Source: an uncultured Pseudomonadales bacterium (GTDB lineage Bacteria > Patescibacteriota > Microgenomatia > UBA1400 > PJMF01). Taken from it: a stretch of DNA of 64,000 bases. Position 1 is the stretch's first letter. Each line of letters starts with the position of its first letter. Both the position numbers and the translations under genes were made by a program. The notes under the pieces are model-generated. The model did no database searches. It saw nothing but the letters and a program-made list of their open reading frames with translations, and was not told the DNA's origin. Shown in pieces: positions 15,601 to 59,004 of this stretch. The stretch covers positions 4,302-68,301 of the forward strand of contig CAYWDM010000006.1 of the NCBI GenBank assembly GCA_964457085.1, given 5' to 3'.

Positions 15601-16813
15601 ACCAACTGGTGACTGCCTTAACAAGCAGCGATTTCTTAAAGTTTCTGACTCTGACAAGGTACGAGTCACTTCACAGCGTCTGTTTTCTGAACCAAACCTG
15701 CACATCCTGATGACTCTACCAACATTCGGGTCTGAAACCCAACATGCTGAAATTTCTGAGATGGCATTAATCGGTTTTAGCCCTATAAAAAGTAGCTATG
15801 CGTCACTCAATCTTGAGGAATATCTCAATCCACCCTCTGCCACAATTTCTAATAACCAACTAGCCATCCCCTATTTCCTGTCGAGTAGTTCACTGTACAC
15901 AAACCCAAAAACACATGGCATTCAAGTTGAAAATCGAGGACTCTGTCAACTAAACCAAACAGACAGACGTAAAAATGGCATTCAACATATCTCAACCGCT
16001 GACACTGGCAAATTACAAATATATCTTGATAACTGTGCTACAAATGTGAGCTATTATTTACCGTATTTTCCAACCAATGCCTATTGGTGGTCAATTGACT
16101 ACAAACGAATTGCTGGCGGCCAACCACAATTTCTTGCCAACACCAACTTGCTCATTGCCGATGAACTGCTTGGTCTCAACCAAGGCTATCCATTTTCAGC
16201 CACAGCTCCCGCAACCGCGTCGATAACGATACCACCCCAAGGCAAATTTAAAACTAATCCATTTGAAATCTTCAGCATCACCCAATACACCGCAAACCAG
16301 TCAGCCTTTGAGCTGGATACTATCACCATTTTCCCCATTCCATTTAACTGGCAAAATAGCTACGTCGAGTCTGCCAACACCGCACTCGATTTTGCACCGC
16401 TCGCCATCACTGAGCTAAAACAACTACTCCCTTCACTTTGGTCAGTAAGACTCACTAAGCCAATCAACGAGAACCCATCCAACCAAGATTTTCTACTCAC
16501 ATTTAATCAAGGATACGATAGCCAATGGGTATTACTTCGCGGCGTACAAAAAGTCCCAGCTCACCACCTCAAAGTTAATGGTTGGGCCAACGGTTGGATT
16601 ATTACCACAGACATGATCCCAGCCGATGACACTTACTACCTCCTGTACCTACCAGAATTGCTCAGCCTGGCAGGCTGGATAGCAACTCTAATAGCAATCA
16701 CTAGCGTGATGTTTATTAATTTAAAACGGGTTGTCACTTCGCCAAACCTCACTCCACGAAAAGAGCGGCTCACCAAAATGGTAATCGCCGCTCTTCAAAA
16801 ATCTAATAAATAG
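12671..16813 (+). CDS. large polytopic membrane protein (1380 aa), GT-C/YfhO-like topology with Thr/Ser-rich extracytoplasmic C-terminal domain and C-terminal TM
   Basis: Twelve or more predicted N-terminal TM helices, a long low-complexity beta-rich C-terminal region, and a final TM (LSLAGWIATLIAITSVMFINL). Sits in a glycosylation cluster. Confidence 0.5.
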   Translation: MDKQLRLYRSKLSKGLKNNFGLVILSFFLCMVTLANLPQPNHWLAGWDNFSVSLDLPLNFARTVFATWREYRGFGVPSDSEVVDIFRQLPLLILGLLVPSWTLEWIYYFGMYWLGAIGVFYLTKSVVSNLIKHTFANFALQMAGLIGAIAYATNLYTIDVFYFPITLYIVRHGFLPWIIWCTHQLLIQAQPSRRLWLWFTICILFASPGALTATVFFVTAMIIGCLLIFQGTVKRKMQVGLLLISLQLFWLLPFGNYFLQKSSQITHANTFVPINEMLLNQPFERFSLDRILTFSADFTSGAPFKDVTRKPIVVHPGLSYAPIGEQPPLGYWSLWAPTIVGVLILVFWQLKKRQANYLWIPLLMGIGVFLLRKEYGFAGQVFDWLIDAVPILKVIFRFGGAKLNPLLILGASVLSGLATTGLLIAANNCKQKILKASLQFGIVTLSLAAVGWMGWYPLTGSLYFRVMSVEFPTAYFQAAKQINDDSSYGRVLHLPYGLHSYWRSHTFGYYGSSFMAFLLKKPLQDKTFNPGNLDHNSYDTSLMQLISNSSKLTPEALNSRSAEFAQFLAHTNTTYILWDPTVGTQIRIQGLITWELVHTVDTNTLIQSLLDSNRATIVGEYPLPGWAQPTLATESSIKIVKLNTTQPVVTSQTTAIVIDPTQTNLLSPSFTSLNTTLLQSNQLPARSYPWWGQNNSLTHDSRFLQLTYNQSDLTDNILSLKAPEIKTHTGNEYVGVDVLAAYVGEQLEIYFRPTPLPFTTQLSSTPTPSFSMPITKQAWENTTLNTSFSNYLNNWHILGNHQTNQYRLAISDQVIPLPANLANQPEYLTSLLLPISDLSQLPISILIADTIADEQLRRFSGNYFSLTPEVNCWNDTFTGFSSTFKTSPDTISATTTHGTLCFGASIDLEAPTQEITTSSTKTSDQRRYFELEFSPKFFSTADTASHTEFPLTTQQELQSLHTSQPVISELFVCLMSTPTGDCLNKQRFLKVSDSDKVRVTSQRLFSEPNLHILMTLPTFGSETQHAEISEMALIGFSPIKSSYASLNLEEYLNPPSATISNNQLAIPYFLSSSSLYTNPKTHGIQVENRGLCQLNQTDRRKNGIQHISTADTGKLQIYLDNCATNVSYYLPYFPTNAYWWSIDYKRIAGGQPQFLANTNLLIADELLGLNQGYPFSATAPATASITIPPQGKFKTNPFEIFSITQYTANQSAFELDTITIFPIPFNWQNSYVESANTALDFAPLAITELKQLLPSLWSVRLTKPINENPSNQDFLLTFNQGYDSQWVLLRGVQKVPAHHLKVNGWANGWIITTDMIPADDTYYLLYLPELLSLAGWIATLIAITSVMFINLKRVVTSPNLTPRKERLTKMVIAALQKSNK

Positions 16814-43390: not shown

Positions 43391-45256
43391 CTATTTTATT
43401 ACAGTTGGTTTTTCAACCACATCAAACGTTGTAGCACTTACCGAAGCTTGTGGTTGATAGACTGTGAAACCAACACTGCCATCGTCATATTTTGCTTCAA
43501 AGACTTTTTGTAATAAACCGGTTCGCTGACATCGATTATGAAGTGTGAAGAAAATATAATAATCGTATGGCTCTTTTGCTAATTCCGAAGAAGCACATAA
43601 ATCGCTTACAAAATGTCGCTGACCAATCCAGAAATCTTTGGCATTCAAAAAATATTTACCAGGTTTTTTAATTGGCAATGTACGCAAATCTTCCTGTGCA
43701 AAAAGATAAGGATAAAAGAACACACCCTCAACGTGCTCCTCAATAATCTTTGAGTCATGGGCATTGGCGTTAATCCATTTTACTAGCTCTTCTCCAGCAC
43801 GACTGCGGTTAAACGGTCGTTCAAAGGGCGTTTGGGCCACATATCCAAACCAGAAACTGAGCAGGTTTGGTGCTGACAACAGTAAAATAGTGCTAACAAT
43901 CACTACCGGAGAAAATAAAAACTGTTGCCAATTTGTAGATACTTTAATTTGAGTAAACAAAGATTTGATTGTCACAAACCAACCAAGTGCTGATGCAAGT
44001 TGTAACCATGGCACCATGATTACTGCCCGCTGTAGATTTGGAAAATCATCTTGAGTTAGGGCCGATGGAATGGCAGCAATAAACAAGAAACCCAAACTCA
44101 AAGCCACTAAAGGTCGCAGATTCTGCTGACTGGTCTCAAGTGATTTAGCCGATTTAGACATCGAAAAATCCATACCCAAAACTAAAAATGCCATAGCTAA
44201 CACCACTCCCAAGTACTCAAAAACCGTAACTGAGACTCCATTTGGAACCGCATATCTAATTGGTGGACCGTTCTGAAAAAGTAAAACCGATGGTGACAAT
44301 AACCCTACATATTGTCGCCAAAATGCCGAGAAATTTTCCGTAACTTTGTTGTATCTAAACCGAGTGATTAGTGGTGGGATCCCAGCTTGTCCTGACTGAG
44401 CGATATGTGAGGTCAACGCTCCCTTGACTGTATCGCTACCAAGAATTGCCGTCTCCTGATACCTGCCTTGTGCATACGGAGTCTGCAATAACACGCCAAA
44501 AGGAAAAATGAGATAGGTTGCAATTACAGCTACAATTCCAATCGTCAGTTGACGTGACCAATCCCCTCGATGATGCCACCAGGTGTATGCCGCAATTAAT
44601 ACTAAAAATGGTGGAATCAACAACCTAGAAGTGAAATAGGTCACATAACAAATAATTGTGAGTGTATAAATTGCTACTAATCCAAAAATAAACTGACGCA
44701 AATCTGCTGTTCGCTGAAGCTTACTCTGAGCTGCATTCCAAAAAACAGTTGTGGCCACCAACACTAACAAAGCCAGTACCATCGAATCCACGATCACACT
44801 TGAAGAAGCTCGTGACATCACAATGCTCCATGGAGATACCGCCCAAAGTACTGCAGCAATGAGCACCAATAATTTATTGCGAGTTTGTCGATATAACCAC
44901 CACAATGCCAAACCTGCAGCGATCAAACCAGTGACAATAATGCCTGCACGATATGATGTTACTTGCGATCCAAAAAATGCAATAAATGGCACCAGCACAT
45001 ACGAATGAATTGCTGAAACATGATCCCCCCACATATCTACAGTGAGTGGCCATTTCTCTCCATAAATATTGCTGCCAGATTTCAACAATAACCATCCATT
45101 GTAGGCAAACCAGGCCTCATCTTGATGCATTCCAGCTGGAAAATCAGCCAAACGCCAAAACCGACCAGCAATTGCTAATACGGCAATTGCCAGACCTGAA
45201 AGCCACCATCCAAATGAGGTTTTTAGTTGTTTCAAAAGATGATTGAATATGTGCAC
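43391..45256 (-). CDS. GT-C family glycosyltransferase (ArnT/PMT, GT39/83-like)
   Basis: Polytopic, with a first-loop DE motif (GMHQDEAWFAYNGW) typical of ArnT/PMT enzymes. Confidence 0.65.
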   Translation of the reverse strand: MHIFNHLLKQLKTSFGWWLSGLAIAVLAIAGRFWRLADFPAGMHQDEAWFAYNGWLLLKSGSNIYGEKWPLTVDMWGDHVSAIHSYVLVPFIAFFGSQVTSYRAGIIVTGLIAAGLALWWLYRQTRNKLLVLIAAVLWAVSPWSIVMSRASSSVIVDSMVLALLVLVATTVFWNAAQSKLQRTADLRQFIFGLVAIYTLTIICYVTYFTSRLLIPPFLVLIAAYTWWHHRGDWSRQLTIGIVAVIATYLIFPFGVLLQTPYAQGRYQETAILGSDTVKGALTSHIAQSGQAGIPPLITRFRYNKVTENFSAFWRQYVGLLSPSVLLFQNGPPIRYAVPNGVSVTVFEYLGVVLAMAFLVLGMDFSMSKSAKSLETSQQNLRPLVALSLGFLFIAAIPSALTQDDFPNLQRAVIMVPWLQLASALGWFVTIKSLFTQIKVSTNWQQFLFSPVVIVSTILLLSAPNLLSFWFGYVAQTPFERPFNRSRAGEELVKWINANAHDSKIIEEHVEGVFFYPYLFAQEDLRTLPIKKPGKYFLNAKDFWIGQRHFVSDLCASSELAKEPYDYYIFFTLHNRCQRTGLLQKVFEAKYDDGSVGFTVYQPQASVSATTFDVVEKPTVIK

Positions 45257-45291: not shown

Positions 45292-46659
45292 TCACAATTT
45301 AAACTGCAGTAAAATTGTTTGATCTCTTTTAGGCCCGGTCGTAATTATAGAAATCGGCACACCAATGCTCTGACTCATGAATTTCAAAAACTTACGAGCC
45401 GCTGCCGGCAATTCTTTGAGATTTCTTGCGGCTGCCAATTTACTAGCATCCCAAGATGGCATCTCAATATATGTTGGAGCCACTGTATTTAAAAATTCCT
45501 GATCTGGTCGATACTCAACATTTTTACCCGCAACAGTATAGCCGGTACAAATTTTGATTGGAAAATCAGAATAACTGATGTCCATGTGGGTTAAAACTAA
45601 ACTATTTAGTCGACCAACTTTACAAAAAAATTTAAGTGCCGGAATATCCAAATAGGCAATGTCGCGTGGTCTCTTAGTTGTAGCACCATACTCATGTGCA
45701 TCCTCTCGAATTCGATCCGCAAGTTCACCGGTCATGATACTGGGTAACTGTCGCACCCCCACACTAGACATATAGGTGGCCTTGATTACGCCAGCTTTGA
45801 ACTTAATTTTATCTGGATCAATGACACCTTCTGTAGCAGAAAAAATTCCGTCAAACGTGGTATCAGAAGCAGTGATGTCTGGATATACACCCCACCGATA
45901 ATCCAAACCAATTGCTTGAGATTTCTCAAATACAAAACCGCATTTTTTATCTTGCCATTTTTCACTTAACCAATCATGTAAATCATAAGTTACCGCTGCT
46001 AGTTTTAATCCTTGGGCTTTCAATCTGCGTAAAAATTCTGCTTCTGAGCCGACAGCGAGCGTAGCTCCATTTAAGCTTGGTACCAGTACAGATGACATGT
46101 CGTGTCCAAGTCCTTTAATGAGTGCACTGTACATTTGATAATGCTGTTTAATTTTTTGGTCATTAAATACAACAATATCTTTCATCCTCAGTGGATGTCG
46201 CAGTAACACATCCGAATATGCAGGGGAAATACCACGGCCAGTAGCACCTTTTCCACCTGTTTGCCATTGCTTCAGCACATTTTCATACGCTCGGTGGGTG
46301 TCGAGTGATAATAACGCATAACGATCAATCTTCACTTTTGCACGATCCTTTGTTGACTTCACCGCTTTAATATTCACCAACTCTTCAAGCAGATCTCCAG
46401 GATGCAGTACCATCTCCTTGCCTAGAACAATCACTGCTCCTTTAATAAATGCACCAGAGGGAAGTTGATGTAAGGCAATACGGTGACCATCGGCAAACTC
46501 AACCGTATGTCCTGCATTTGCCCCGCCATTATCTCGGTAAACAATTACTTCACCTTTCTGACTCAGTTGATGCACCAACATATCAACAATTCTGCCTTTA
46601 CCTTCATCACCAAATGCACCTCCACAGCATGCAAATGTTTTTGGGCGAAAACTAGTCAT
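45292..46659 (-). CDS. purA: adenylosuccinate synthetase
   Basis: GDEGKGRIVD, GGANAGHTV, GATGRGI and EYGATTKRPRDIAYLD motifs. Confidence 0.85.
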   Translation of the reverse strand: MTSFRPKTFACCGGAFGDEGKGRIVDMLVHQLSQKGEVIVYRDNGGANAGHTVEFADGHRIALHQLPSGAFIKGAVIVLGKEMVLHPGDLLEELVNIKAVKSTKDRAKVKIDRYALLSLDTHRAYENVLKQWQTGGKGATGRGISPAYSDVLLRHPLRMKDIVVFNDQKIKQHYQMYSALIKGLGHDMSSVLVPSLNGATLAVGSEAEFLRRLKAQGLKLAAVTYDLHDWLSEKWQDKKCGFVFEKSQAIGLDYRWGVYPDITASDTTFDGIFSATEGVIDPDKIKFKAGVIKATYMSSVGVRQLPSIMTGELADRIREDAHEYGATTKRPRDIAYLDIPALKFFCKVGRLNSLVLTHMDISYSDFPIKICTGYTVAGKNVEYRPDQEFLNTVAPTYIEMPSWDASKLAAARNLKELPAAARKFLKFMSQSIGVPISIITTGPKRDQTILLQFKL

Positions 46660-48052
46660 TATTTCCTTTCGATTTCAGATAACTACGGATATTTCGATGC
46701 ACGGTGGCTGCAATTTCAGCTGATAAACCCAAATAATTTGTTGGGGATAGCTGTAATAATTGCTGTTTTATCTCATCTGAAATCTGTAACTGGGCAACAA
46801 ACTGATTTAGAATTTTTTTCGTGACTTTTTTTCCTTGTGTTTGCTCTTGCAGTTTTTGATATCCCAGCACATCACCATGCATGCGTAAAATAACCTGATA
46901 TGCTTCAGCAACTACCTCCCAGTGATCATTTAATTCTTGATTTACTTTTATGGTATCAACTGATATTTTCTGCAACCCTTTTATGAGTGAAGTGTAAGCT
47001 AAAACGCACTGTCCAATGGCAACTCCAAAATTGCGTTTTACAGTGCTATCTGAAAGGTCTCGTTGCAATCGAGAAATCGGCAATTTTTGAATAAAATGGA
47101 TCAGCATACTATTCGCCATTCCCAAATTGCCCTCGCTATTTTCAAAATCTATGGGATTAACCTTGTGCGGCATTGTCGATGATCCAACTTGGCCAGTTGC
47201 TAGTTTTTGAACCAAATATCCGTCACTAATGTAACGCCATGCATCCTGATTAAGGTCAAGTAAAATTCCATTTATCCGAATCAAACTACTAAATAATTGA
47301 CTGTAACTTTCTGGAGATAAAATCTGCGTTGCAATCACAGATGGTGCCAAACCTAATGAAGCAACAAATTCTTTGCTTATTTTTAGCCAATCAACATCTG
47401 GAAAAATGGTGAGGTGAGCATTAAAATTTCCAACTGCACCAGAAACCTTTCCTTCGATTTGTAACTGATCAAGTACTAATAATTCTTGAAGTAGACGCTG
47501 TGCAAAAACCGCGAATTCTTTACCAATGGTTGTAGGAACTGCTACCTGACCATGTGTCCGTGCCAGCATTGGCGTGTCTGCATAGTCATTGATAATTTTG
47601 CCGAGCGTTTTGAGAAGTAACTGAAGCATCGGAATAACAAGTTGTTCTTTTGCTTCCATCAACATTTGAGAATATGCAAGTGAATTAACATCCTCACTCG
47701 TTAAAGCGATATGAACATATGCTGCTAGTGGTGAATTTATTTTTTGCAGCTTTGCTGTTAAAAAATACTCAACTGCTTTAACATCGTGTCTAGTAATGAG
47801 TTCTATTTTTTTAACTTCTTCCGCATCAGTAGTACTGAAGTCATGCTGCAGTTGGAGTAAAAAGATTTCTTCATCTGAGGTAATTTTAGGAATCAATCGG
47901 TGTTTCGATAAAAAGAAAAGATACTGAATTTCAATTTTGACTCTATGGGTAATTAATGCAAACTCAGAAAAAATATTCGAAACTTCTGTTAGCTGTGTGT
48001 GATAGCGTCCATCCAAAGGAGATATTGCAGTTAGACGTGAGTCCGTTGCCAT
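46652..48052 (-). CDS. purB: adenylosuccinate lyase
   Basis: SPLDGRY N-terminal signature and fumarate-lyase fold. Start set at MATDSRL; the ORF track extends to 48130. Overlaps the purA start. Confidence 0.8.
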   Translation of the reverse strand: MATDSRLTAISPLDGRYHTQLTEVSNIFSEFALITHRVKIEIQYLFFLSKHRLIPKITSDEEIFLLQLQHDFSTTDAEEVKKIELITRHDVKAVEYFLTAKLQKINSPLAAYVHIALTSEDVNSLAYSQMLMEAKEQLVIPMLQLLLKTLGKIINDYADTPMLARTHGQVAVPTTIGKEFAVFAQRLLQELLVLDQLQIEGKVSGAVGNFNAHLTIFPDVDWLKISKEFVASLGLAPSVIATQILSPESYSQLFSSLIRINGILLDLNQDAWRYISDGYLVQKLATGQVGSSTMPHKVNPIDFENSEGNLGMANSMLIHFIQKLPISRLQRDLSDSTVKRNFGVAIGQCVLAYTSLIKGLQKISVDTIKVNQELNDHWEVVAEAYQVILRMHGDVLGYQKLQEQTQGKKVTKKILNQFVAQLQISDEIKQQLLQLSPTNYLGLSAEIAATVHRNIRSYLKSKGNND

Positions 48053-48137
48053 TAATCCAATTGTACAGCAATTTAGCCATTTGCAGAGAGAAAATTTGGA
48101 ACTGTTTAATTCTATTTCGTGTTTCTGCAACCAGCAT

Positions 48138-50970: not shown

Positions 50971-51249
50971 TTAGACGGTTTTTCGCTTCTCAAGTTCTGC
51001 TAAAACCATATCCAGTGTAACACCGCGTGCTGCCAACATCACTAAAGTGTGAAACAACAAATCAGCAGTTTCAGAAACTAATCGTCGTTTGTTACTATTT
51101 TTAGCAGCAATCACCACTTCAACAGCTTCTTCACCAACTTTTTGAATAATTCGGTCGTCATTATCTCTGAAGAGCGAAGCAACATATGAATTATCTGGCA
51201 TGTTCTCTTTACGAGCAATGATTATTTTGTAGAGTGCTTGTAATGTCAT
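50971..51249 (-). CDS. hisE: phosphoribosyl-ATP pyrophosphatase
   Basis: 92 aa, [13 protein letters not shown]...[17 protein letters not shown]. Confidence 0.85.
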
Positions 51250-51575
51250 ATCTTCCGTTCAATTAATTTGGTATAAAAACAACTACGAGAGCCAGTGTGA
51301 CAAACTGCCACTCCCTGCAATTCAACTGTGACTAATACAGTATCGGCATCACAGTCTTGATACAACGAGAGAACTTTTAGCTGATTACCCGACTGTTCAC
51401 CCTTTAGCCAAAGTTTTTTTCGACTTCGACTCCAGAAATAAACAAAGCCAGTTTGCTGTGTTTTTTCGAGTGCCTGAGCGTTCATATATCCCAGCATCAA
51501 AACTTCACCAGTAGTTCCATCTTGAATAATGGCTGGCACCAATCCTGAATTTTTATTGAAATCAATTTTTTTCAT
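51246..51575 (-). CDS. hisI: phosphoribosyl-AMP cyclohydrolase
   Basis: GLVPAIIQD...[16 protein letters not shown]...CDADTVL...CHTG. Confidence 0.85.
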
Positions 51576-52332
51576 AGACGTTTCTATTTGGGATTTTTTT
51601 TAATTGCATATATTTTTTTAAATCAGAAATCGTCAACTCACCAAAGTGGAATAGTGAAGCAGCTAATGCACCGTCAGCGACTCCTTCTTCAAATACATCG
51701 GCAAAGTCTGTAATGCTTCCAGCACCTCCAGAAGCAATCACCGGGACAGTGACACTTTGAGAAATAATTCTAGTCAGCTCTAAATCAAATCCCTTCTTGG
51801 TGCCGTCAGCATCCATGCTAGTCAACAAAATCTCACCAGCTCCAAGTCCGACTCCTTCTTTTGCCCAGGATAGAGCGTTAAGCCCTGTTGCAGCAGTACC
51901 ACCATTAATCACTACCTCCCAACCAGTTTTATTTTTTTTAACATCGATCGCCAATACGATACATTGACTACCAAATACCCTTGCAGCTTCGGTAATGAGA
52001 CTGGGTTTTTTAACTGCTGCAGTATTGAGTGAAACCTTATCAGCACCAGCCAATAATACGGTTCTAATATCTTCAATTGAACTAATACCACCTCCGACTG
52101 TAAATGGAATAAAAATAGTTTCAGCAACTTTTTTAACCATCTCGATTATTGTTTTACGTCGATCATTAGTAGCGGTAATGTCTAGGAATACCAACTCGTC
52201 AGCACCTTGGTCATTGTAGAATTTTGCCAATTGCACCGGATCACCAGCATCCTGCAAATTCACAAAATTAACCCCTTTAACCACTCGGCCGTTAGCAATA
52301 TCAAGACAGGGAATAATTCGTTTAGTTAACAT
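51562..52332 (-). CDS. hisF: imidazole glycerol phosphate synthase cyclase subunit
   Basis: [15 protein letters not shown]...[10 protein letters not shown]. Confidence 0.9.
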
Positions 52333-53044
52333 TGTTGACCTCCTGAATTGAGATTTTGCCTTCTAATACTGCTTTGCCAATAATTACTCCTGCTACTTTG
52401 AGAACTGAGAGTGCAATGACATCTGCTTTTGAGGACACTCCACCAGCAACAATGAGTGGCACTGAAAGTAACGACTGTAACTTTTTAACCTCTTCAAAAT
52501 TGGGTTGAGTTAGTGTGCCGTCTCTACTCACATCAGTATAAATAAATGTTTTCACTCCCCATTTTTCTAGCTGTATAGCAGTTTCAAGTAAATCTTGATC
52601 ACTGTTTTCCAACCAACCACGTTTGGCTAATTTGCCATTTTTACTGTCGAGCGAAACAATAATCCTGTCACCGTATTTGTCTAGCATTTGTTTTATCAGT
52701 GATTCGTTCTCTAAAGCCACCGTGCCAATAATTACTTTTGTGTCTCCAATTTTTAAAAGCTTCTCGACACTAGCAAGAGACTGAATGCCGCCACCAACTT
52801 GAACAGGAATGGTAACCGCGGTAATGATTTTTTTTATGATGACTAGATTGATTGATCGACCAACTTTGGCACCATCAAGATCCACGATGTGTAGTGCTCT
52901 AGCTCCTGCAGTTTGCAAGCGTAGAGCCATTGCCACAGGATCTTGGCCATAGATTGTTTCCAAAGCATAATCACCTTGTTGTAAGCGGACACAATTGCCA
53001 GCTCTAATATCAATAGCGGGAATAACTAGCATAATAGCCTCCAA
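52322..53044 (-). CDS. hisA: ProFAR isomerase
   Basis: [15 protein letters not shown]...LHIVDLDGA. Confidence 0.85.
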
Positions 53045-53625
53045 AAGTTTTCTAATACCTGGAGACCTGCCTCACCACTTTTCTCTGGGTGAAACTGTAC
53101 TCCATAGATATTTTTTGACTCAATCACACTGCAAAAGTCTTGACCATAATTAGTTACGCCAGTAACGTTTTTGGTGTCAATCGGATTGCAGTAATATGAG
53201 TGTACAAAGTAAAAATACGAATTATTTGTAATACCCTGCAACAACTGCGAATTTAATGCATTGACTTGGTTCCAGCCGACTTGGGGCACCTTTAAATTAG
53301 TTTTCAATTTTTGAACCTCACCATTAATCAAATCGAGACAATTGACACCACCTTCTTCACTAAATGAAAAAAATAATTGCATCCCCAAACAAATTCCTAG
53401 TAATGGTTTACCACTAGCAACTTGCTCAGTTATCACAACATCAAGATTTCGCTGTCGCAGATTTTTCATACCTGCACCTGCGGCACCCACTCCTGGCAAA
53501 ATTAAACCTGTTGCCTGCTGAATATCGCCAGTTTGATTCGATATTTTGAAAGGAATGCTGAGTCGAGAAAGTGCATTTGCCACACTCGCCAAATTTCCCA
53601 ATCCATAATCAATAATTACTATCAT
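53026..53625 (-). CDS. hisH: imidazole glycerol phosphate synthase glutaminase subunit
   Basis: IVIIDYGLGNLASV, GICLGMQ catalytic Cys, HPEKS. Confidence 0.9.
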   Translation of the reverse strand: MIVIIDYGLGNLASVANALSRLSIPFKISNQTGDIQQATGLILPGVGAAGAGMKNLRQRNLDVVITEQVASGKPLLGICLGMQLFFSFSEEGGVNCLDLINGEVQKLKTNLKVPQVGWNQVNALNSQLLQGITNNSYFYFVHSYYCNPIDTKNVTGVTNYGQDFCSVIESKNIYGVQFHPEKSGEAGLQVLENFWRLLC

Positions 53626-54215
53626 AATGAACCCTTCGTCGATGGTATTTGTGTCAGTGCTCTCTGGTCATATTCACAAGCAGCTCGAATTGCTCGAGCC
53701 ATTGCTTTGAATATGCCTTCGATTTTGTGGTGATCATTGCGACCATTTTCAACCTTAATGAAAACATTGGCTTTGGCGTTTTGGGCAAAACCATCCCAAA
53801 AGTCGTAAACCAGCTCAGTGCTAAGATCTCCAACCTTGTCACGGTTAAAGTCACAATCGAGAGCGAAGGCATACCGTCCAGAAAAATCTATGGCTACCGT
53901 CACTAGTACCTCATCCATTGGCAATACAAAGAATCCATAACGATTAATGCCACGCTTCTCTCCAAGTGACTGCGCGAATGCCTGGCCTAAAACAATACCG
54001 ATATCTTCTACTGTGTGGTGCTCATCAATAAAAATATCTCCCTGAGCTACCAGTGCTAGATCAAATAAGCCGTGTTTGGCAAATAATTCCAGCATGTGTG
54101 ATAAAAAACCTACTGGCACAGTGATTTGTCGCTGTCCGGTTCCATCAACACTAAGTGATAACTCAATTTGAGTTTCAGTGGTAATGCGGGTAATTACGGC
54201 GGAACGTTTTTTCAT
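53622..54215 (-). CDS. hisB: imidazoleglycerol-phosphate dehydratase (monofunctional)
   Basis: RITTETQIELSL...DEHHTVEDIGI...AMARAIR. Confidence 0.9.
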   Translation of the reverse strand: MKKRSAVITRITTETQIELSLSVDGTGQRQITVPVGFLSHMLELFAKHGLFDLALVAQGDIFIDEHHTVEDIGIVLGQAFAQSLGEKRGINRYGFFVLPMDEVLVTVAIDFSGRYAFALDCDFNRDKVGDLSTELVYDFWDGFAQNAKANVFIKVENGRNDHHKIEGIFKAMARAIRAACEYDQRALTQIPSTKGSL

Positions 54216-56053
54216 AACAGGAGTCTTTCGATTTCGTTGGTGCCTGCAACTTCAAACTCAGCTGCACTACCAGTGCCGACAAAGATACATGGCATCTGAG
54301 CTGACTTCGCAGCCAATACATCATTAATACTGTCGCCAACATAGATTGGCCGATTACTATCAAGCAGTGCAGCAGCTTGTAATAATGGATCTGGAAATGG
54401 TTTTTCTCGCAAAGTGTCCTCTTTACCAACTACAAATTTTTCTTGAATTAGTGCCGGTGATATCTTTAGATTTCTCAGTGCAAACAATGCCTCAAACTTT
54501 GGTCTCCCCGTAGCAACTCCAACCTTGTATTTATTAGCAATCTTTTTCAGGACTGCTAAATCTATCAACAGTATTTCATTAGCAATCAGTCCCGATTGCT
54601 CACTAATTGGAGCTAGTCGTTGATATATCTCAAAAAATAACTCAGAGCCTAAATAAAAACTCTGAAAAATATCTTTTATTTTTTGGTACTCTGAACTATT
54701 TTTTATTTGATCACTAAGAGCTGTGATTTTTTTCTTAAATTGAGTACGATAGATTTTTTTTGAGAGTAATTGTATGAGTGCAAACGACAGATCCCAATCA
54801 TTATTGAATCCTGGAATCAACTTCATGGACTCAACATCTTCGGCGGCTATAACTGTGTGCAAACCATAATTATTTTGTAGCACGTACTCAACCGTTAATT
54901 TGATTGCCTGGCGATATGACTGCGAGACATCTATCAGTACACCATCCATATCAAAAATAACGCTATCTAACTTTGGTTTAGAATATTCCCTGAGTGCTGC
55001 CAACAACTTGTCATTCTGGCGACGAGTGCCGATACTGATGCGAATTGCACTGTAAGCTGTGTAGTAGCGAACCACAATTTTTCGCTTCTCCAGAATTTCC
55101 TGTAACTGCGAGAGTCGATCCATCACAATAAACAGCGAGTTTGCTGCTGATGGATACACCGTAAAGCAGGACAATTTTTCAAGTTCATTATTTAAACGAG
55201 TTCGCTCTGCAACAATTGTCGCCAGCATTTTTTCTCTCCAAGTGGTATCAGAGAGAGCAGCGATTCCTGCCTCATTTGCAGCCAAGTTAACATTGTATGG
55301 TGGTTTAATCTTAAACAGCTGCTGCACAAAAAACTCATTCATCACCCCATATCCCAATCGCAAACCTGCCAATCCCGCCCATTTACTCAGAGTTCGTAGC
55401 ACGATTAAGTTGGGATACTGCTCCAGTAGTGAGATTACACTCTTACCAGAAAACTCAAAATAGGCTTCGTCCACAATGACCAGCTTACCGGTTTTTAATA
55501 ACGTAATGATTTCTTCCTCGCCACTGACAGTCCCGGTAGGATTATTTGGCGAACAAATTACGATTGCCTTGGTACGAGCTGTGACTGCTTTTCTAATCCC
55601 TATCAGATCCAATGAAAAATCAGCATTTCTGGCAACCGCAACTACCACACCACGATTCAACTGTACCGACACACAGTACATGCCAAATGTTGGCGGACAG
55701 TTGATTACTTCGTCGCCATTATTCAGGATCAATCGGAATAGTAAATCCAACAGTTCGTCTGACCCTGAACCAACCATGATATTTTTAACAGCGGCACCAG
55801 TATATTCAGCCAGTGCAAAGCGTAACTGCATATATTCAGGATCAGGATAAAAATTATATTTTGGTTGTCCTCGTAGTGCTTTCTGCACTAATGGTGAGTA
55901 GCCAAATTGATTTTCACCCGCGTCAAGTTTAATAACATCTTCAGAATTTTGACCAAACTTCTCTGCCAAATCCCACAGCGATGCTACCGGCAGATAGGCC
56001 GACATCGCTGCGATATCCTTTCGGATCATATTTTGTATAGTATTTTTTTTCAT
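54212..56053 (-). CDS. hisC: histidinol-phosphate aminotransferase fused to a C-terminal HAD-family phosphatase
   Basis: N-terminal aminotransferase class I/II with PLP-Lys region LRTLSKWAGLAGLRLGY. C-terminal HAD motifs FDMDGVLID (I), VATGRP (II) and VGDSINDVLAAK (IV). Start set at MKKNTIQ. Confidence 0.8.
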   Translation of the reverse strand: MKKNTIQNMIRKDIAAMSAYLPVASLWDLAEKFGQNSEDVIKLDAGENQFGYSPLVQKALRGQPKYNFYPDPEYMQLRFALAEYTGAAVKNIMVGSGSDELLDLLFRLILNNGDEVINCPPTFGMYCVSVQLNRGVVVAVARNADFSLDLIGIRKAVTARTKAIVICSPNNPTGTVSGEEEIITLLKTGKLVIVDEAYFEFSGKSVISLLEQYPNLIVLRTLSKWAGLAGLRLGYGVMNEFFVQQLFKIKPPYNVNLAANEAGIAALSDTTWREKMLATIVAERTRLNNELEKLSCFTVYPSAANSLFIVMDRLSQLQEILEKRKIVVRYYTAYSAIRISIGTRRQNDKLLAALREYSKPKLDSVIFDMDGVLIDVSQSYRQAIKLTVEYVLQNNYGLHTVIAAEDVESMKLIPGFNNDWDLSFALIQLLSKKIYRTQFKKKITALSDQIKNSSEYQKIKDIFQSFYLGSELFFEIYQRLAPISEQSGLIANEILLIDLAVLKKIANKYKVGVATGRPKFEALFALRNLKISPALIQEKFVVGKEDTLREKPFPDPLLQAAALLDSNRPIYVGDSINDVLAAKSAQMPCIFVGTGSAAEFEVAGTNEIERLLL

Positions 56054-56060
56054 ATTTTTT

Positions 56061-57353
56061 TTAATTTCTAAATCGAATCTCGCAGGCAACTTTGTGAGCG
56101 GGTAGCTCCTCTATCTCAGCTAAGGTTTCGATGGTTTTTCGTAAATTATTTAGTCCTGTTTTGCTACAGCGCTGTACCTGCATCCATTTGCCATAACAAT
56201 CAACTCCTAGAGGTGGGTACATCTTAGCCATGCCCCCAGTTGGTAGTACGTGGTTGGCACCTGTTGCATAATCCCCTGCTGATTTGGCTGTCCAATTTCC
56301 TAAGAAAATTGAACCTGCATTTACAATCTCACTGACCACTGCTTCAGGATCTTTAGTCATGATCTCTAAGTGCTCAGGAGCGTATTCATTGGTAAAAGCA
56401 ATTGCTTCTTCCAGTGAATCAACTACAGCTACTAAACCAAACTTAACTAATGATTCAGTTAGACGCTCGGCAGTTGCCAACAGTGGCACTTGTTTCTCGA
56501 TTTCAGCAATTGTTTGCTCAGCAATCTCCAGCGAAGTAGTGACTAAAACACATGCTGAATCATTACCGTGTTCACCATCTGCCAAGAGATCGGCAGCAAT
56601 GAACGCTGGGTTAGCAGTCTCATCAGCGATTACAAATACTTCAGAAGGACCAGCTGGCATATCGATACTAATTGATTCAAGTGCCAGCATCTTTGCAGCA
56701 GTTACCGCAGCACCACCAGCACCAAAGATCTTAGAGACTTTTGGTACAGATTCTGTGCCATAGGTCATAGCTGCGATTGCCAGTGGTCCACCCAGTTTAA
56801 AAATCTCGGTCAATCCAATCATGTCAGCAGCCACCAATGTTGGTGCTGGAATCTGACCAGTGCCTCGTGCCGGTGAACAGAGCACAATCTGTGTACAACC
56901 AGCAATCTGTGCTGGAATCGCACTCATCAATACTGATGAAGGATAAATAGCTTTGCCACCAGGAATATATAATCCAACTTTCTCGATTGCTCGCCACTCA
57001 CGCCAAACTGCCACTCCAACTTCTGGTCGCACTACAGTATCCAGTTTGGTGGGTAACTGTGCGGAGTGCACGGCAGTAATATTGCGAATCATTTGACGAA
57101 TTGACTCAATAAAGTCTTGATTAACTTCTCGGTAAGCCTGATTAATCTCCTCAGAAGTAACTTTAATTGAAGTGAAATTCTGACCTGCAAAACGCTTGGC
57201 AGCATCAGCATATAGTGCTCTGTCGCCATCCTGTTTCACCGACTCCATGATTTGTTTCACTTGAGGCATGATTTGAGAATCATCGCCTGCACTGCGAGCC
57301 ATAATTCTTTGATAATCACTGGCCGATAAATCTTTAAGTTTAATAACTTGCAT
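56061..57353 (-). CDS. hisD: histidinol dehydrogenase
   Basis: Conserved HisD segments (CSPARGTGQ, GEHGNDS, DYATGANHVLPTGG). Confidence 0.9.
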   Translation of the reverse strand: MQVIKLKDLSASDYQRIMARSAGDDSQIMPQVKQIMESVKQDGDRALYADAAKRFAGQNFTSIKVTSEEINQAYREVNQDFIESIRQMIRNITAVHSAQLPTKLDTVVRPEVGVAVWREWRAIEKVGLYIPGGKAIYPSSVLMSAIPAQIAGCTQIVLCSPARGTGQIPAPTLVAADMIGLTEIFKLGGPLAIAAMTYGTESVPKVSKIFGAGGAAVTAAKMLALESISIDMPAGPSEVFVIADETANPAFIAADLLADGEHGNDSACVLVTTSLEIAEQTIAEIEKQVPLLATAERLTESLVKFGLVAVVDSLEEAIAFTNEYAPEHLEIMTKDPEAVVSEIVNAGSIFLGNWTAKSAGDYATGANHVLPTGGMAKMYPPLGVDCYGKWMQVQRCSKTGLNNLRKTIETLAEIEELPAHKVACEIRFRN

Positions 57354-57362
57354 ATAATTCCT

Positions 57363-58244
57363 TTACAAAATAATTTTTTCGATTGGTAAGACAATAATTC
57401 CAGTGGCACCAGCAGCTTTGAGTTTTTCAATGGTTTCCCAAAACACATCCTCTTTAATTACAGTTTGGATCGAGACCCAACCGTCCTGAGCTAGTGGTGA
57501 AACTGTCGGCGATTTAAGTCCGGGAGTAATTTTCTGCAAATTTGACAAAATATCTTCTGGAGCATTCATCATCACGTATTTATAGGTTTTGGCTGAAAGT
57601 ACGGCTTTGAAACGAACCAACAATCTTTTTATTAATCGCAGTTTGGCTGCATCCACCATGCTGGTGCCATTGGCAATACAAACCGCTTCACAGTCATAGA
57701 TTTTTGCCAGTTGTCGCAAATCATTAAGTGCCATAGTGCTGCCAGTAGCAGTGAGGTCAGCGATGGCGTCAGCAACTCCCAACATCGGTGCTATCTCCAC
57801 CGAACCGCTAATCTTGATTGTCTCCACCGACATGCCACTTTTCTTAAAAAAATTCTTGGTTGAGTTCGGGTAGGAAGTGGCAATCGTTTTTCCGTCTAAA
57901 TCTACTAATTCAACGACAGGCGATTCTTTGGGGACCGCCAATGTCAGAGCACAAAATCCATACCGCAGATTTAAAAGTTTCTTGACGTTTTTTGGTCGTT
58001 CTTCGTACAGTAAATTTTGACCCACAATACCCATATCCACACTACCAGAAGCTACATAATCGGGAATATCGTCGTCACGCATGTAGATAATTTCTAAAGG
58101 AAAATTGCGACAAGTAGAAAACAACTTAGATTTATAACTGGCAAATTCCAGTCCAGCACTTCGCAAAAAACTAATGGTTTCGTCAGTCAGACGACCACTT
58201 TTTTGAATAGCTAATTTTAGATTTTTTTGATTCATGTTTTGCAT
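57363..58244 (-). CDS. hisG: ATP phosphoribosyltransferase, long form with regulatory domain
   Basis: LKLAIQKSGRL...DIPDYVASGSVDMGIVG. About 290 aa, so it includes the C-terminal regulatory domain. Start at ATG 58244 or 58235; the ORF track uses TTG at 58256. Confidence 0.85.
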   Translation of the reverse strand: MQNMNQKNLKLAIQKSGRLTDETISFLRSAGLEFASYKSKLFSTCRNFPLEIIYMRDDDIPDYVASGSVDMGIVGQNLLYEERPKNVKKLLNLRYGFCALTLAVPKESPVVELVDLDGKTIATSYPNSTKNFFKKSGMSVETIKISGSVEIAPMLGVADAIADLTATGSTMALNDLRQLAKIYDCEAVCIANGTSMVDAAKLRLIKRLLVRFKAVLSAKTYKYVMMNAPEDILSNLQKITPGLKSPTVSPLAQDGWVSIQTVIKEDVFWETIEKLKAAGATGIIVLPIEKIIL

Positions 58245-58259
58245 AATTACTTTCAATTT

Positions 58260-58332
58260 GGGTGGCTGAGGGGAGTTGCACCCCCGGCCTTCTCCTCCAC
58301 AAGGAGATGCTCTACGGTTGAGCTACAGCCAC
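58260..58332 (-). tRNA. tRNA-His (anticodon GUG)-like gene with G-1 and C73, non-canonical D- and T-loops
   Basis: Manual fold of minus-strand GGTGGCTGTAGCTCAACCGTAGAGCATCTCCTTGTGGAGGAGAAGGCCGGGGGTGCAACTCCCCTCAGCCACC. Eight-bp acceptor including the His-specific G-1:C73 pair, anticodon loop UUGUGGA. D-loop AACCGUA lacks GG; T-loop is UGCAACU (G at position 55). Confidence 0.6.
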
Positions 58333-58354
58333 CATCTTTTAAACGAGTGGTTAA

Positions 58355-58422
58355 TAAAAAACCTCCCGTTCATTTCTCACCAACACCAGCAAAACCAGTG
58401 GTTGGTAAAAAAGGAACGAGAG
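58355..58422 (-). terminator. second leader hairpin: 10-bp stem (CCUCUCGUUC/GAACGGGAGG) with an internal nested hairpin, followed by U6
   Basis: Seen in the minus-strand transcript between the T-box-like terminator and the tRNA-His-like gene. Confidence 0.4.
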
Positions 58423-58426
58423 GCAA

Positions 58427-58610
58427 TAAAAAAGGACCTCCCGCGGTCCCATCCTTCATTCTCTGAGGTATTTCTCCTCAAAGCTCTCAGGCCGGCTCCG
58501 CACGTGCGACATCGGCTGTTGTATTTAACGGTTCAACTTCCGTAAGACATTTTGGCCTTCAGCTCATGGATCGTGACTCCACTCAAACGCTTTATTGGTA
58601 TTAACTTGTA
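58427..58610 (-). promoter_or_regulatory. candidate T-box riboswitch leader (His-specific) with terminator
   Basis: Minus-strand RNA has AAGGA-UGGGACCGCGG (58440-58450), matching the T-box core UGGNACCGCGG, with N=G complementary to the tRNA-His discriminator C73. Terminator GGACC-GCGGGA-GGUCC plus U6 at 58427-58448. CAC codon within GUCGCACGUGCG at 58503-58505. Confidence 0.45.
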
Positions 58611-58701: not shown

Positions 58702-59004
58702 TTATGTGCGCTTCGAATCACCGTACAGTCTCTGCAAAATAATCGAATAGCCATGCCATGATTCTTTATACAGCCACTGAGCCACCCGAGTTACAGTGGT
58801 GGTGCTTGTACCGACTTTCTCTGCAATCTCTAAGTAAGAAAGTTTAGTTGACCACAATAGTTTAGCGATGTGAAAGCGACGAGAAAACTCTTCAATTTCT
58901 GCTGGAGTCAACAAATCACGAAGAAAGCCAGTGACTTCTTTCGGGCCACACAGTGTGGAGATGGCGGCGATGAGTTCTTTGTCAGATTTAGTGGGATAAG
59001 ACAT
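58702..59004 (-). CDS. yerC: YerC/YecD (TrpR-related) family DNA-binding protein
   Basis: 100 aa with LSYLEIAEKVGTSTTTVTRV HTH and overall TrpR_YerC pattern. Confidence 0.6.
   Translation of the reverse strand: MSYPTKSDKELIAAISTLCGPKEVTGFLRDLLTPAEIEEFSRRFHIAKLLWSTKLSYLEIAEKVGTSTTTVTRVAQWLYKESWHGYSIILQRLYGDSKRT

What the first reader, a model, noticed from the sequence alone, without database searches (positions are those of the whole stretch)
54212..56053. HisC fused to a HAD phosphatase, a candidate for the missing histidinol-phosphate phosphatase step
HisB here is monofunctional and contains only the IGP dehydratase domain. The only phosphatase-like module in the operon is a C-terminal HAD domain fused to the aminotransferase HisC, with motif I FDMDGVLID and motif IV GDSINDV. 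Fusion to the enzyme that produces histidinol-phosphate strongly suggests substrate channelling into dephosphorylation. Together with hisG, D, B, H, A, F, I and E this gives a complete pathway.
Basis: partly seen in the sequence, partly recalled or inferred. Interest (0 to 1): 0.55.

Follow-up and report, generated by a model that had tools for sequence, protein, structure and literature searches.

The report
HisC fused to histidinol-phosphate phosphatase
One gene in a compact histidine operon joins the aminotransferase HisC to a phosphatase domain from a family already shown to dephosphorylate histidinol phosphate, so it very probably supplies the "missing" eighth step; the fusion is real and widespread but appears not to have been described.

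Summary
Window 54212-56053 (-) is one 613-aa ORF. It holds a HisC domain (TIGR01141, above the curated cut-off) joined by about 5 residues to a complete HAD phosphatase domain. It sits in a hisG-D-[C-HAD]-B-H-A-F-I-E operon whose HisB is dehydratase-only.

The interpretation as the missing histidinol-phosphate phosphatase (HolPase) is supported:
- The HAD domain belongs to the TIGR01548-like family that includes the archaeal HolPases toHisN and nmHisN. Profile-profile probability against the Thermococcales his-operon phosphatases is 99.95%. The best solved structures by sequence and fold are 6IAH (Tt82) and the uncharacterised 1QYI.
- It keeps all four catalytic motifs and the Tyr/Lys/Asp substrate fingerprint. 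Arg replaces Asp at the fourth fingerprint position.
- In 37 of 80 related genome loci the homologue lies exactly between hisC and hisB, and in 12 of those it is fused.
- In sister CPR bacteria the same HisC position carries the unrelated E. coli-type HolPase domain (TIGR01261).

Substrate channelling is plausible but untested, and activity has not been measured. The family is known. The HisC-HolPase architecture is common in databases (41 of the top 150 cluster representatives), is annotated only as "transaminase", and was not described in any paper I could search.

In passing: a His-specific T-box-like leader and a tRNA-His gene precede hisG.

The parts
54212..56053 (-). hisC-HAD fusion gene (613 aa plus stop), predicted bifunctional histidinol-phosphate aminotransferase / histidinol-phosphate phosphatase
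   Evidence: Single ORF. Pfam and NCBIfam hit both domains. Full-length AlphaFold model has pLDDT 92.9. A 100% identical protein is in public data (P0001) and in independent assemblies.
54980..56053 (-). HisC domain (aa 1-358), PLP-dependent; Schiff-base Lys224 in the SKWAGLAG motif
   Evidence: TIGR01141 at 314.9 bits, above the 276.55 cut-off. S223, K224, N171, D195, Y198 and R232 are invariant among 38 fusion homologues.
54965..54979 (-). Very short inter-domain linker (aa 359-363, KPKLD)
   Evidence: In the full-length model the HisC C-terminal helix ends at residue 358 and the first HAD strand starts at 364. In split relatives the HAD start codon overlaps the hisC 3' end by 11-14 nt.
54215..54964 (-). 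HAD phosphatase domain (aa 364-613), TIGR01548-like, of the toHisN/nmHisN HolPase family
   Evidence: TIGR01548 is the best NCBIfam hit at 114.7 bits; the next best is 50.4. PDB sequence hit 6iah has E 6.8e-14. Foldseek to 6iah gives TM 0.72/0.76. hhalign against the Thermococcales his-operon phosphatases gives probability 99.95 and E 1e-38.
54935..54952 (-). HAD motif I, D368-M-D370-G-V-L (nucleophile Asp368, acid/base Asp370)
   Evidence: D368, D370 and G371 are each conserved at 97% across 303 family members.
54569..54928 (-). Single helical C1 cap (aa 376-495) carrying the substrate fingerprint Y380, R381, I384, K411, N417-N-D419-W-D421
   Evidence: The AlphaFold model (pLDDT 95.6) shows 7 helices between motifs I and II. 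Conservation: Y380 88%, R381 72%, K411 94% (+5% R), D419 97%. These map to the Kinateder fingerprint Y24/D25/K56/E64 through the Tt82 alignment.
54320..54511 (-). HAD motifs II (T515, R517), III (K551-P) and IV (G573-D574-x3-D578)
   Evidence: Conservation: T515 96%, R517 98%, K551 99%, G573/D574 99%, D578 98%.
57363..58256 (-). hisG, long form with the C-terminal regulatory domain (true start probably ATG 58243)
   Evidence: PF01634 plus PF08029, and TIGR00070/TIGR03455.
56061..57353 (-). hisD, histidinol dehydrogenase, which consumes the phosphatase product
   Evidence: TIGR00069 at 474 bits.
53622..54215 (-). hisB, monofunctional IGP dehydratase; its start overlaps the fusion gene's stop by 4 nt
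   Evidence: PF00475 only. It matches only positions 165-355 of the bifunctional HisB model.
50971..53625 (-). hisH (53026-53625), hisA (52322-53044), hisF (51562-52332), hisI (51246-51575), hisE (50971-51249)
   Evidence: The NCBIfam hits are TIGR01855, TIGR00007, TIGR00735, NF000768 and TIGR03188, all above their curated cut-offs.
58260..58332 (-). tRNA-His (GTG) immediately upstream of hisG on the same strand (context, noticed in passing)
   Evidence: ARAGORN and Rfam. The same arrangement occurs in L002.
58352..58596 (-). T-box-like leader with a CAC specifier loop, the T-box motif and a terminator (context, noticed in passing)
   Evidence: RF00230 scores 44.3 bits, below the gathering score of 93; E is 1e-8 for the small region searched. 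It is conserved in L002 and L004, with compensatory changes in the short Stem I.

Best explanation
The gene encodes a bifunctional enzyme for two consecutive steps of histidine synthesis. The N-terminal HisC domain (PLP on Lys224) transaminates imidazole-acetol phosphate to L-histidinol phosphate. The C-terminal HAD domain hydrolyses that product to L-histidinol, which HisD, encoded by the gene just upstream, oxidises to histidine.

Proposed phosphatase mechanism, inferred from the HAD superfamily:
- Mg2+ is held by D368, D574 and D578.
- D368 attacks the phosphate to form an aspartyl-phosphate.
- D370 acts as the general acid/base.
- T515 and K551 bind the phosphoryl group.
- The helical cap (aa 376-495) closes over the site and selects the imidazole/amino moiety through Y380, K411 and D419, with R381 and I384.

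What is shown: domain identities, intact motifs, family membership, operon context, and the recurrence of the fusion. What is inferred: HolP specificity, a dimeric quaternary structure through HisC, and any kinetic benefit from the 5-residue tether (fixed 1:1 stoichiometry or proximity).
For: 1. Both domains are intact. HisC passes the TIGR01141 equivalog cut-off, and all four HAD motifs are present.

2. Family membership.
- TIGR01548 is by far the best model, at 114.7 bits against 50.4 for the next.
- 6IAH/Tt82 is the closest PDB sequence match, E 6.8e-14. By fold it ranks second at E 4.4e-11, TM 0.72/0.76, just behind the uncharacterised 1QYI (E 1.4e-11).
[quoted passage not shown] They are therefore positional orthologues of toHisN, whose HolPase activity is reported (Lee 2008, as cited in PMC10804674).
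- BLASTP against the T. kodakarensis protein gives 29% identity, E 2e-22.
- Profile-profile comparison gives probability 99.95, E 1e-38, over 231 columns that include the cap.

3. Fingerprint. The fingerprint defined by alanine scanning of nmHisN is Y24, D25, K56, E64 plus I28 and I52 (PMC10804674). It maps to Y380, R381, K411, D419 plus I384 and V407. The resulting Y-R-K-D pattern is the one that paper reports for its euryarchaeal cluster II and its delta-proteobacterial sequences.

4. Gene order. Of 80 GTDB loci that encode a relative, 37 have hisC-HAD-hisB. Twelve of those are a single ORF, and fused forms fall in at least 4 separate clades. Split CPR relatives have the HAD gene in the same slot, overlapping hisC.

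5. Non-orthologous displacement. Daviesbacteria-type operons carry HisC fused to TIGR01261 hisB_Nterm, at 147.5 and 202.3 bits against a cut-off of 140, at the same position. A HAD-HisI fusion also exists (P0230).

6. No other phosphatase is present in the operon or the window.
Against: - No enzymatic or genetic test exists for this protein, or for any member with Arg at the D25-equivalent position. Kinateder et al. call HolPase function 'less reliable' for that subgroup.
- The TIGR01548 score is below the curated cut-off (114.7 against 140.2).
- The nmHisN sequence itself could not be obtained, so the fingerprint mapping goes through Tt82 and residue spacing.
- From memory, Tt82 was published as a phosphatase with broad substrate range.
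- Only 64 kb of the genome is visible, so a second HolPase (PHP or IMPase type) elsewhere cannot be excluded.
Confidence: 0.85

Rival explanations
1. The HAD domain is a phosphatase with a different physiological substrate, such as phosphoglycolate, a sugar phosphate, pyrophosphate, or PLP for cofactor homeostasis of HisC. Histidinol phosphate would then be hydrolysed by an unlinked PHP- or IMPase-type enzyme or by a promiscuous phosphatase.
For: - Weaker NCBIfam hits go to PGP, PpaX and beta-PGM-like models.
- The TIGR01548 score is below its cut-off.
- Arg381 replaces the Asp that mattered in nmHisN (D25A lowered kcat/KM about 200-fold, PMC10804674).
- The rest of the genome is unseen.
Against: - Those hits cover only the generic Rossmann core (aa 150-240 of the domain) and score no more than 50 bits.
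- The cap, which determines specificity, is homologous to that of the his-operon phosphatases.
- The conserved hisC-HAD-hisB position across phyla and the swap with a bona fide HisB-N domain are hard to explain otherwise.
- nmHisN did not hydrolyse PLP, phosphoserine or sugar phosphates (PMC10804674).
- Position 381 varies (R/D/L/Y) among members embedded in his operons.
Confidence: 0.08
2. The aminotransferase half is not HisC. It could be a CobD-like decarboxylase or a broad aromatic aminotransferase, and the fusion would then serve another pathway.
For: TIGR01140 (CobD) also hits at 201.5 bits.
Against: - The CobD score is below its cut-off of 290.55, whereas TIGR01141 hisC is above its own.
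- The gene sits between hisD and hisB in a complete his operon with no other hisC.
Confidence: 0.03
3. The fusion is an assembly or frameshift artefact that joins two overlapping genes, or the HAD half is a decaying inactive remnant.
For: Close relatives have separate hisC and HAD genes that overlap by 11-14 nt, so a single-base error could fuse them.
Against: - The identical fused gene occurs in two independent assemblies.
- More than 40 distinct fused clusters exist at 40-69% identity, and 41 of the top 150 cluster representatives are fusions.
- All catalytic residues are intact.
- Both domains are modelled with high confidence.
Confidence: 0.02

Closest known systems
toHisN (TON_0887, Thermococcus onnurineus) and its Thermococcales orthologues, including Tt82 (PDB 6IAH)
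   Same: - HAD core with one helical C1 cap of about 7 helices.
- Encoded directly after, and overlapping, hisC in the his operon.
- Homologous over the full length, hhalign probability 99.95.
- Fingerprint Tyr, a basic residue and Asp at equivalent positions.
   Different: - Only 26-29% identical.
- Standalone, not fused.
- Fingerprint Y-D-R-D there against Y-R-K-D here.
- Archaeal and hyperthermophilic.
nmHisN (Nmar_1556, Nitrosopumilus maritimus; Kinateder et al. 2024, PMC10804674)
   Same: - HAD HolPase encoded between hisC and hisB, the same slot as here.
- Mg2+-dependent and specific for HolP.
- Fingerprint Y24, K56 and an acidic residue at 64, plus I28, all matched here.
   Different: - Standalone monomer with a nine-helix cap.
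- Asp at position 25, where this protein has Arg.
E. coli HisB (HisNB), bifunctional HolPase / IGP dehydratase
   Same: A HAD-superfamily HolPase fused to another his enzyme inside the operon.
   Different: - A different HAD subfamily (IIIA/DDDD, TIGR01261, no helical cap). The window domain has no TIGR01261 hit.
- The fusion partner is HisB, so steps 6 and 8 are joined and are not consecutive. Here the partner is HisC, so steps 7 and 8 are joined and are consecutive.
HisC::HisB-N fusions of Daviesbacteria-type CPR bacteria (P0077, P0059)
   Same: The same architecture (HisC at the N-terminus, phosphatase at the C-terminus), the same operon position, and closely related HisC domains at 53-54% identity.
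   Different: The phosphatase is the unrelated E. coli-type TIGR01261 domain and the proteins are about 505-525 aa. This fusion also appears undescribed in the literature I searched.

Membership tests
toHisN/nmHisN-type HAD histidinol-phosphate phosphatases (TIGR01548-like) | HAD catalytic motifs I-IV (DxD, T/S, K, GDxxxD) | tested here: met
   D368/D370, T515, K551 and D574/D578 are present, and each is conserved at 96-99% in 303 homologues.
toHisN/nmHisN-type HAD histidinol-phosphate phosphatases (TIGR01548-like) | A single large all-helical cap inserted between motifs I and II | tested here: met
   The AlphaFold model (pLDDT 95.6) has 7 helices at aa 380-492 of the fusion. Foldseek to 6IAH gives TM 0.72/0.76.
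toHisN/nmHisN-type HAD histidinol-phosphate phosphatases (TIGR01548-like) | Full-length sequence homology to experimentally validated members | tested here: met
   hhalign against the Thermococcales/Thermoplasmata his-operon phosphatases gives probability 99.95 and E 1e-38. BLASTP against the T. kodakarensis orthologue gives E 2e-22. nmHisN and TON_0887 themselves were not available.
toHisN/nmHisN-type HAD histidinol-phosphate phosphatases (TIGR01548-like) | Substrate fingerprint Y24-D25-K56-E64 (nmHisN) or Y-D-R-D (toHisN) | tested here: inconclusive
   Y380, K411 and D419 match, but R381 replaces Asp. The same Y-R-K-D pattern occurs in the paper's cluster II and delta-proteobacterial groups, whose activity is untested (PMC10804674).
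toHisN/nmHisN-type HAD histidinol-phosphate phosphatases (TIGR01548-like) | Score above the curated TIGR01548 cut-off (140.2 bits) | tested here: not met
   The score is 111.8 bits for the whole protein and 114.7 bits for the domain alone. It is the best hit by a wide margin but is sub-threshold. TIGR01548 is a 'hypothetical equivalog' model that carries no functional name.
toHisN/nmHisN-type HAD histidinol-phosphate phosphatases (TIGR01548-like) | Genomic linkage to hisC within his operons | tested here: met
   The domain is fused to hisC here. The order hisC-HAD-hisB occurs in 37 of 80 related loci, and the same linkage is seen in Thermococcus.
toHisN/nmHisN-type HAD histidinol-phosphate phosphatases (TIGR01548-like) | Mg2+-dependent hydrolysis of L-histidinol phosphate | not testable with these tools
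   This needs an enzyme assay or complementation.
HisB-N / DDDD (HAD-IIIA) HolPase, TIGR01261 | Match to the hisB_Nterm equivalog domain; capless HAD-IIIA core | tested here: not met
   There is no TIGR01261 hit, and TIGR01656 scores 28 bits against a cut-off of 84. P0077 and P0059 do pass TIGR01261.
PHP-type (HisJ/HisK/His2) and IMPase-type (HisN of Actinobacteria and plants) HolPases | PHP domain or inositol-monophosphatase fold | tested here: not met
   Neither Pfam family hits the fusion protein or any other ORF of the window.
HisC (histidinol-phosphate aminotransferase, TIGR01141) | Score above the equivalog cut-off, PLP lysine present, his-operon context | tested here: met
   314.9 bits against a cut-off of 276.55. 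K224 is invariant. The gene lies between hisD and hisB.

The most novel reading that the evidence does not exclude
HisC::HolPase would be a previously unrecognised class of his-gene fusion. hisC is absent from the fusions catalogued by Fani et al. 2007. The fusion arose or was reshuffled repeatedly, with two unrelated HAD phosphatases as partners, in CPR bacteria, DPANN archaea, Melainabacteria, Aminicenantes and some Proteobacteria. In this reading the 5-residue tether places the phosphatase cap next to the aminotransferase exit, so that histidinol phosphate is handed over without equilibrating with the cytosol. That would be true channelling between consecutive steps. The Rosetta-stone link would also let the Y-R-K-D subgroup fill the hisN gap, which is the most frequent remaining hole in amino-acid pathway reconstruction.
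Probability: 0.2. Interest if true: 0.55.

Novelty: new variant of a known kind. Interest (0 to 1): 0.4.

Why it matters
HolPase is the one step of histidine biosynthesis carried out by several unrelated enzymes, and it is the step most often missing from genome reconstructions. According to the GapMind 2026 preprint (10.1101/2024.10.14.618325), hisN is unassigned in 42 of 208 prototrophs.

Current annotation names this protein only "histidinol-phosphate transaminase" and names its standalone relatives "TIGR01548 family HAD-type hydrolase". Three observations give strong comparative evidence that the whole TIGR01548-like clade has this function, including the Arg-25 subgroup left open by Kinateder et al.:
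- the fusion itself;
- its split counterparts in the same operon slot;
- the swap with the E. coli-type domain.

That would close the gap in Acidobacteriota, Aminicenantes, Melainabacteria, CPR, DPANN and others. It also shows that some CPR (Microgenomates) genomes keep a complete, compact and apparently regulated histidine pathway. This is an incremental gain for annotation and enzyme evolution, not a new biochemical principle.

Tried and rejected
- Source genome. Exact look-up of the NCBI-called 597-aa protein found nothing. The taxon is therefore inferred only from named relatives, which are Microgenomates/Patescibacteria.
- nmHisN and TON_0887. I could not obtain either sequence. I used Tt82 and the T. 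kodakarensis orthologue instead and confirmed their his-operon position.
- Literature. Searches for a described HisC-phosphatase fusion found none. The Fani 2007 review of his fusions never mentions hisC. The archaeal fusion survey (PMC11237513) does not list it in the text I read.
- Other HolPase types. HisB-N, PHP and IMPase types were considered and rejected on family scans.
- Channelling. The full-length AlphaFold model could not be used to measure the distance between active sites, because coordinates are not exposed and pTM is 0.69. Channelling stays untested.
- Riboswitches. Rfam at gathering threshold found only tRNAs. The T-box appeared only with the E-value threshold.
Full report
OBSERVATION

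On the minus strand a single ORF runs from ATG 56053 to a stop at 54212-54214 and encodes 613 aa. Pfam finds an aminotransferase class I/II domain at aa 39-354 (E 7e-58) and HAD domains at aa 363-592. NCBIfam places the N-terminal part in TIGR01141 hisC at 314.9 bits, above the curated cut-off of 276.55.

The surrounding genes, all on the same strand and mostly overlapping by a few bases, are:
- hisG, long form with HisG_C, 57363-58256
- hisD, 56061-57353
- the fusion gene, 54212-56053
- hisB, 53622-54215
- hisH, 53026-53625
- hisA, 52322-53044
- hisF, 51562-52332
- hisI, 51246-51575
- hisE, 50971-51249

HisB is 197 aa and matches only the dehydratase half of the bifunctional model. Scanning about 55 further ORFs of the window found no other HAD, PHP or inositol-monophosphatase family protein.

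THE FUSION IS REAL

- A 100% identical protein is in public data (P0001).
- The same fused gene is called in two independent read-set assemblies.
- More than 40 distinct fused homologues at 40-69% identity exist.
- In an exhaustive HMMER search with the HAD domain alone, 2110 cluster representatives matched at E <= 0.001 and 622 at E <= 1e-10. Of the best 150, 41 are HisC-HAD fusions.
- The PLP lysine (K224) and other HisC residues are invariant among 38 fusions.
- AlphaFold models are confident for the HAD domain (pLDDT 95.6, pTM 0.89) and for the whole protein (pLDDT 92.9, pTM 0.69).
- The two domains are joined by only about five residues (359-363).

WHAT THE HAD DOMAIN IS

The best NCBIfam model by far is TIGR01548, an uncharacterised "hypothetical equivalog". 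It scores 114.7 bits against 50.4 for the next model. That is below its cut-off of 140.2, and there is no hit to the E. coli-type TIGR01261.

The closest PDB sequence match is 6IAH at E 6.8e-14. By fold it is the second-ranked match, "Phosphatase Tt82 from Thermococcus thioreducens", with Foldseek E 4.4e-11, TM 0.72/0.76 and rmsd 3.8 Å. The top fold hit, at E 1.4e-11, is the uncharacterised structural-genomics protein 1QYI. [quoted passage not shown] They are thus positional orthologues of toHisN. Kinateder et al. 2024 (PMC10804674) cite toHisN as an experimentally verified HolPase (Lee 2008), with the enzymes of T. kodakarensis and P. furiosus also known.

That paper also shows that Nmar_1556 (nmHisN) is a specific Mg2+-dependent HolPase with kcat/KM about 1e4 M-1 s-1. 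Nmar_1556 is a HAD protein encoded between hisC and hisB of Nitrosopumilus, and it is related to toHisN.

Comparison with this family gives the following results:
- The window domain is 29% identical to the T. kodakarensis protein, E 2e-22.
- A profile of 64 bacterial relatives aligns to a profile of the Thermococcales/Thermoplasmata proteins with probability 99.95% and E 1e-38 over 231 columns. These columns include the entire cap, which determines specificity in HAD enzymes.

ACTIVE SITE AND FINGERPRINT

Across 303 family members the four HAD motifs are 96-99% conserved and are all present here: D368-x-D370, T515, K551, and G573-D574-x3-D578. The cap carries a striking family signature: S379-Y380-R381-x-A-I384, K411, and G-F-N417-N-D419-W-D421.

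Kinateder et al. defined a HolPase fingerprint by alanine scanning of nmHisN: Y24, D25, K56 and E64, with I28 and I52 as accessory residues. toHisN has Y-D-R-D. Using the Tt82 alignment (Tt82 shows Y18, D19, R48, D56) and the conserved spacings, these positions map to Y380, R381, I384, V407, K411 and D419.

Three of the four fingerprint residues therefore match. The fourth is Arg instead of Asp. The paper reports exactly this pattern for its euryarchaeal cluster II and its delta-proteobacterial sequences, and regards those as likely but less certain HolPases. In my sample, Nitrososphaerota has Y-D-R-D, while Bathyarchaeia and Desulfobacterales have Y-R-K-D. Members embedded in his operons have R, D, L or Y at this position. 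This suggests the position is not a strict determinant.

COMPARATIVE GENOMICS

This is the strongest evidence.

- Split relatives. In split CPR relatives (L001; L002, which is Gottesmanbacteria RBG_16_37_8) the standalone HAD gene occupies the same slot, and its ATG overlaps the 3' end of hisC by 11-14 nt.
- Gene order across phyla. A scan of species-representative genomes returned 80 loci from many phyla: Microgenomates, Micrarchaeota, Woesearchaeota, Bathyarchaeia, Methanosarcinales, Acidobacteriota, Aminicenantes, Gastranaerophilales, Desulfobacterales, Myxococcota, Brocadiaceae, Lysobacterales and others. In 37 of them the order is hisC-HAD-hisB, and in 12 of those hisC and HAD form one reading frame.
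- Repeated fusion or fission. A rough NJ tree puts the fused forms in at least four separate clades interleaved with split ones, and the window protein is sister to split CPR forms.
- Displacement by an unrelated HolPase. In Daviesbacteria-type operons the closely related HisC (53-54% identity) carries a different phosphatase at its C-terminus. This is the E. coli-type domain, which passes the TIGR01261 "histidinol-phosphatase" equivalog cut-off at 147.5 and 202.3 bits against 140. The operon position is identical.
- Other fusions. A TIGR01548-like HAD fused to HisI also exists (P0230).

Two unrelated phosphatases occupy the same fusion site on the enzyme that makes histidinol phosphate. This is hard to explain unless both hydrolyse it.

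MECHANISM

HisC, presumably a homodimer like other class-I aminotransferases, makes L-histidinol phosphate. The tethered HAD domain hydrolyses it through the standard aspartyl-phosphate mechanism. HisD then oxidises the histidinol. The fusion joins consecutive steps 7 and 8, unlike E. coli HisB, which joins steps 6 and 8.

The fusion guarantees 1:1 stoichiometry and proximity. Channelling in the strict sense is only a possibility, and I could not examine the inter-domain geometry. My confidence that the domain is the physiological HolPase is about 0.85.

The residual doubt comes from five points:
- there is no assay for this protein or its subgroup;
- Arg381 replaces the fingerprint Asp;
- the TIGR01548 score is sub-threshold;
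- from memory, Tt82 was reported to have broad substrate specificity;
- the rest of the genome is unseen.

NOVELTY

The phosphatase family is known. The HisC-HolPase architecture is abundant in databases but is annotated only as "histidinol-phosphate transaminase". I found no paper that describes it. The classical review of his-gene fusions lists hisA, B, D, E, F, H, I and N but never hisC.

HolPase remains the commonest gap in pathway reconstruction, unassigned in 42 of 208 prototrophs in the GapMind 2026 preprint. I rate this a new variant of a known kind, of moderate interest. Its value lies mainly in annotation and enzyme evolution.

SIDE OBSERVATION: T-BOX AND tRNA-His

Directly upstream of hisG lies a tRNA-His(GTG) gene at 58260-58332. 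Upstream of that, at 58409-58596, is a sub-threshold match to the T-box leader over the full model: 44.3 bits against a gathering score of 93, with E 1e-8 for the small region searched.

The element is conserved in L002, where it is followed by tRNA-His and then hisG, and in L004, where it lies directly before hisG. The alignment shows:
- a very short Stem I with compensatory changes;
- an invariant loop GUCACGA that contains the His codon CAC;
- an invariant T-box motif AAGGAUGGGACCGCGGGAGG, whose UGGG bulge matches the C73-CCA end of tRNA-His;
- an antiterminator/terminator pair followed by a run of U.

This looks like a His-specific T-box with an ultrashort Stem I that controls the his operon. 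In two of the three loci it would also control the gene for its own tRNA ligand. I did not pursue it further.

Noticed in passing
window 58352-58596 (-); L002 2452-2633; L004 3602-3788: A T-box-like leader lies upstream of the his operon. Rfam RF00230 scores 44.3, 45.8 and 28.8 bits in the three loci, all below the gathering score of 93. Stem I is ultrashort and shows compensatory changes. Its invariant loop GUCACGA contains the His codon CAC. The T-box motif is invariant, with a UGGG bulge that fits discriminator C73, and a terminator with a U-run follows. No paper in the searched library links T-boxes with CPR bacteria.
   Followed up: partly
window 58260-58332 (-); L002 2676-2748: A tRNA-His(GTG) gene sits between the T-box terminator and hisG, ending about 4 nt before the hisG ORF. 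The riboswitch would therefore gate transcription of its own ligand tRNA together with the his operon. The arrangement is conserved in a Gottesmanbacteria genome. It is absent from the Daviesbacteria locus L004; L006 was not scanned for tRNAs.
   Followed up: partly
L001, L002, L004, L005 (related CPR his operons): These operons have only one HisA/HisF-family (PF00977) gene between hisH and hisI, and it is closest to hisF. The window and L006 have both hisA and hisF. Either hisA lies elsewhere in those genomes or a single barrel does both jobs.
   Followed up: no
L004/L005 6001-7515 (P0077); P0059, P0066, P0074 and others: A second, apparently undescribed fusion joins HisC to the E. coli-type HisB-N histidinol-phosphatase domain (TIGR01261, above cut-off). 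It occurs in Daviesbacteria-like CPR bacteria and in a protein labelled Sulfotelmatobacter.
   Followed up: partly
P0230 (291 aa, ENA metagenome): A TIGR01548-like HAD domain is fused to HisI (PRA-CH). This is another his-pathway fusion of the same phosphatase family.
   Followed up: no
window 45292-48130 (-) and the whole his operon 50971-58256: The closest named relatives are Microgenomates/Patescibacteria (CPR), a group usually described as lacking amino-acid and nucleotide biosynthesis. Yet the window has a complete his operon plus purA and purB. The taxonomic assignment rests only on the names of homologues, because the source genome was not found.
   Followed up: partly
window 58702-59004 (-): A 100-aa Trp-repressor-family protein (PF01371, E 9e-18) is encoded just upstream of the T-box, tRNA-His and his operon region on the same strand.
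   Followed up: no
window 12671-16813 (+); also 43391-45256 (-): Large ORFs of 1380 aa and 621 aa have no Pfam hit at E <= 1e-5, set among many glycosyltransferase and cell-envelope genes.
   Followed up: no
L013, L018, L020, L021, L033, L050, L058 and others: Longer relatives of 330-350 aa (690 aa in L018) have an extra insertion in the cap. They occur in Desulfobacterales, Syntrophus, Spirochaetes and Bacillota and are usually not next to his genes. They keep the Y-R-K-D fingerprint, and their function is open.
   Followed up: no
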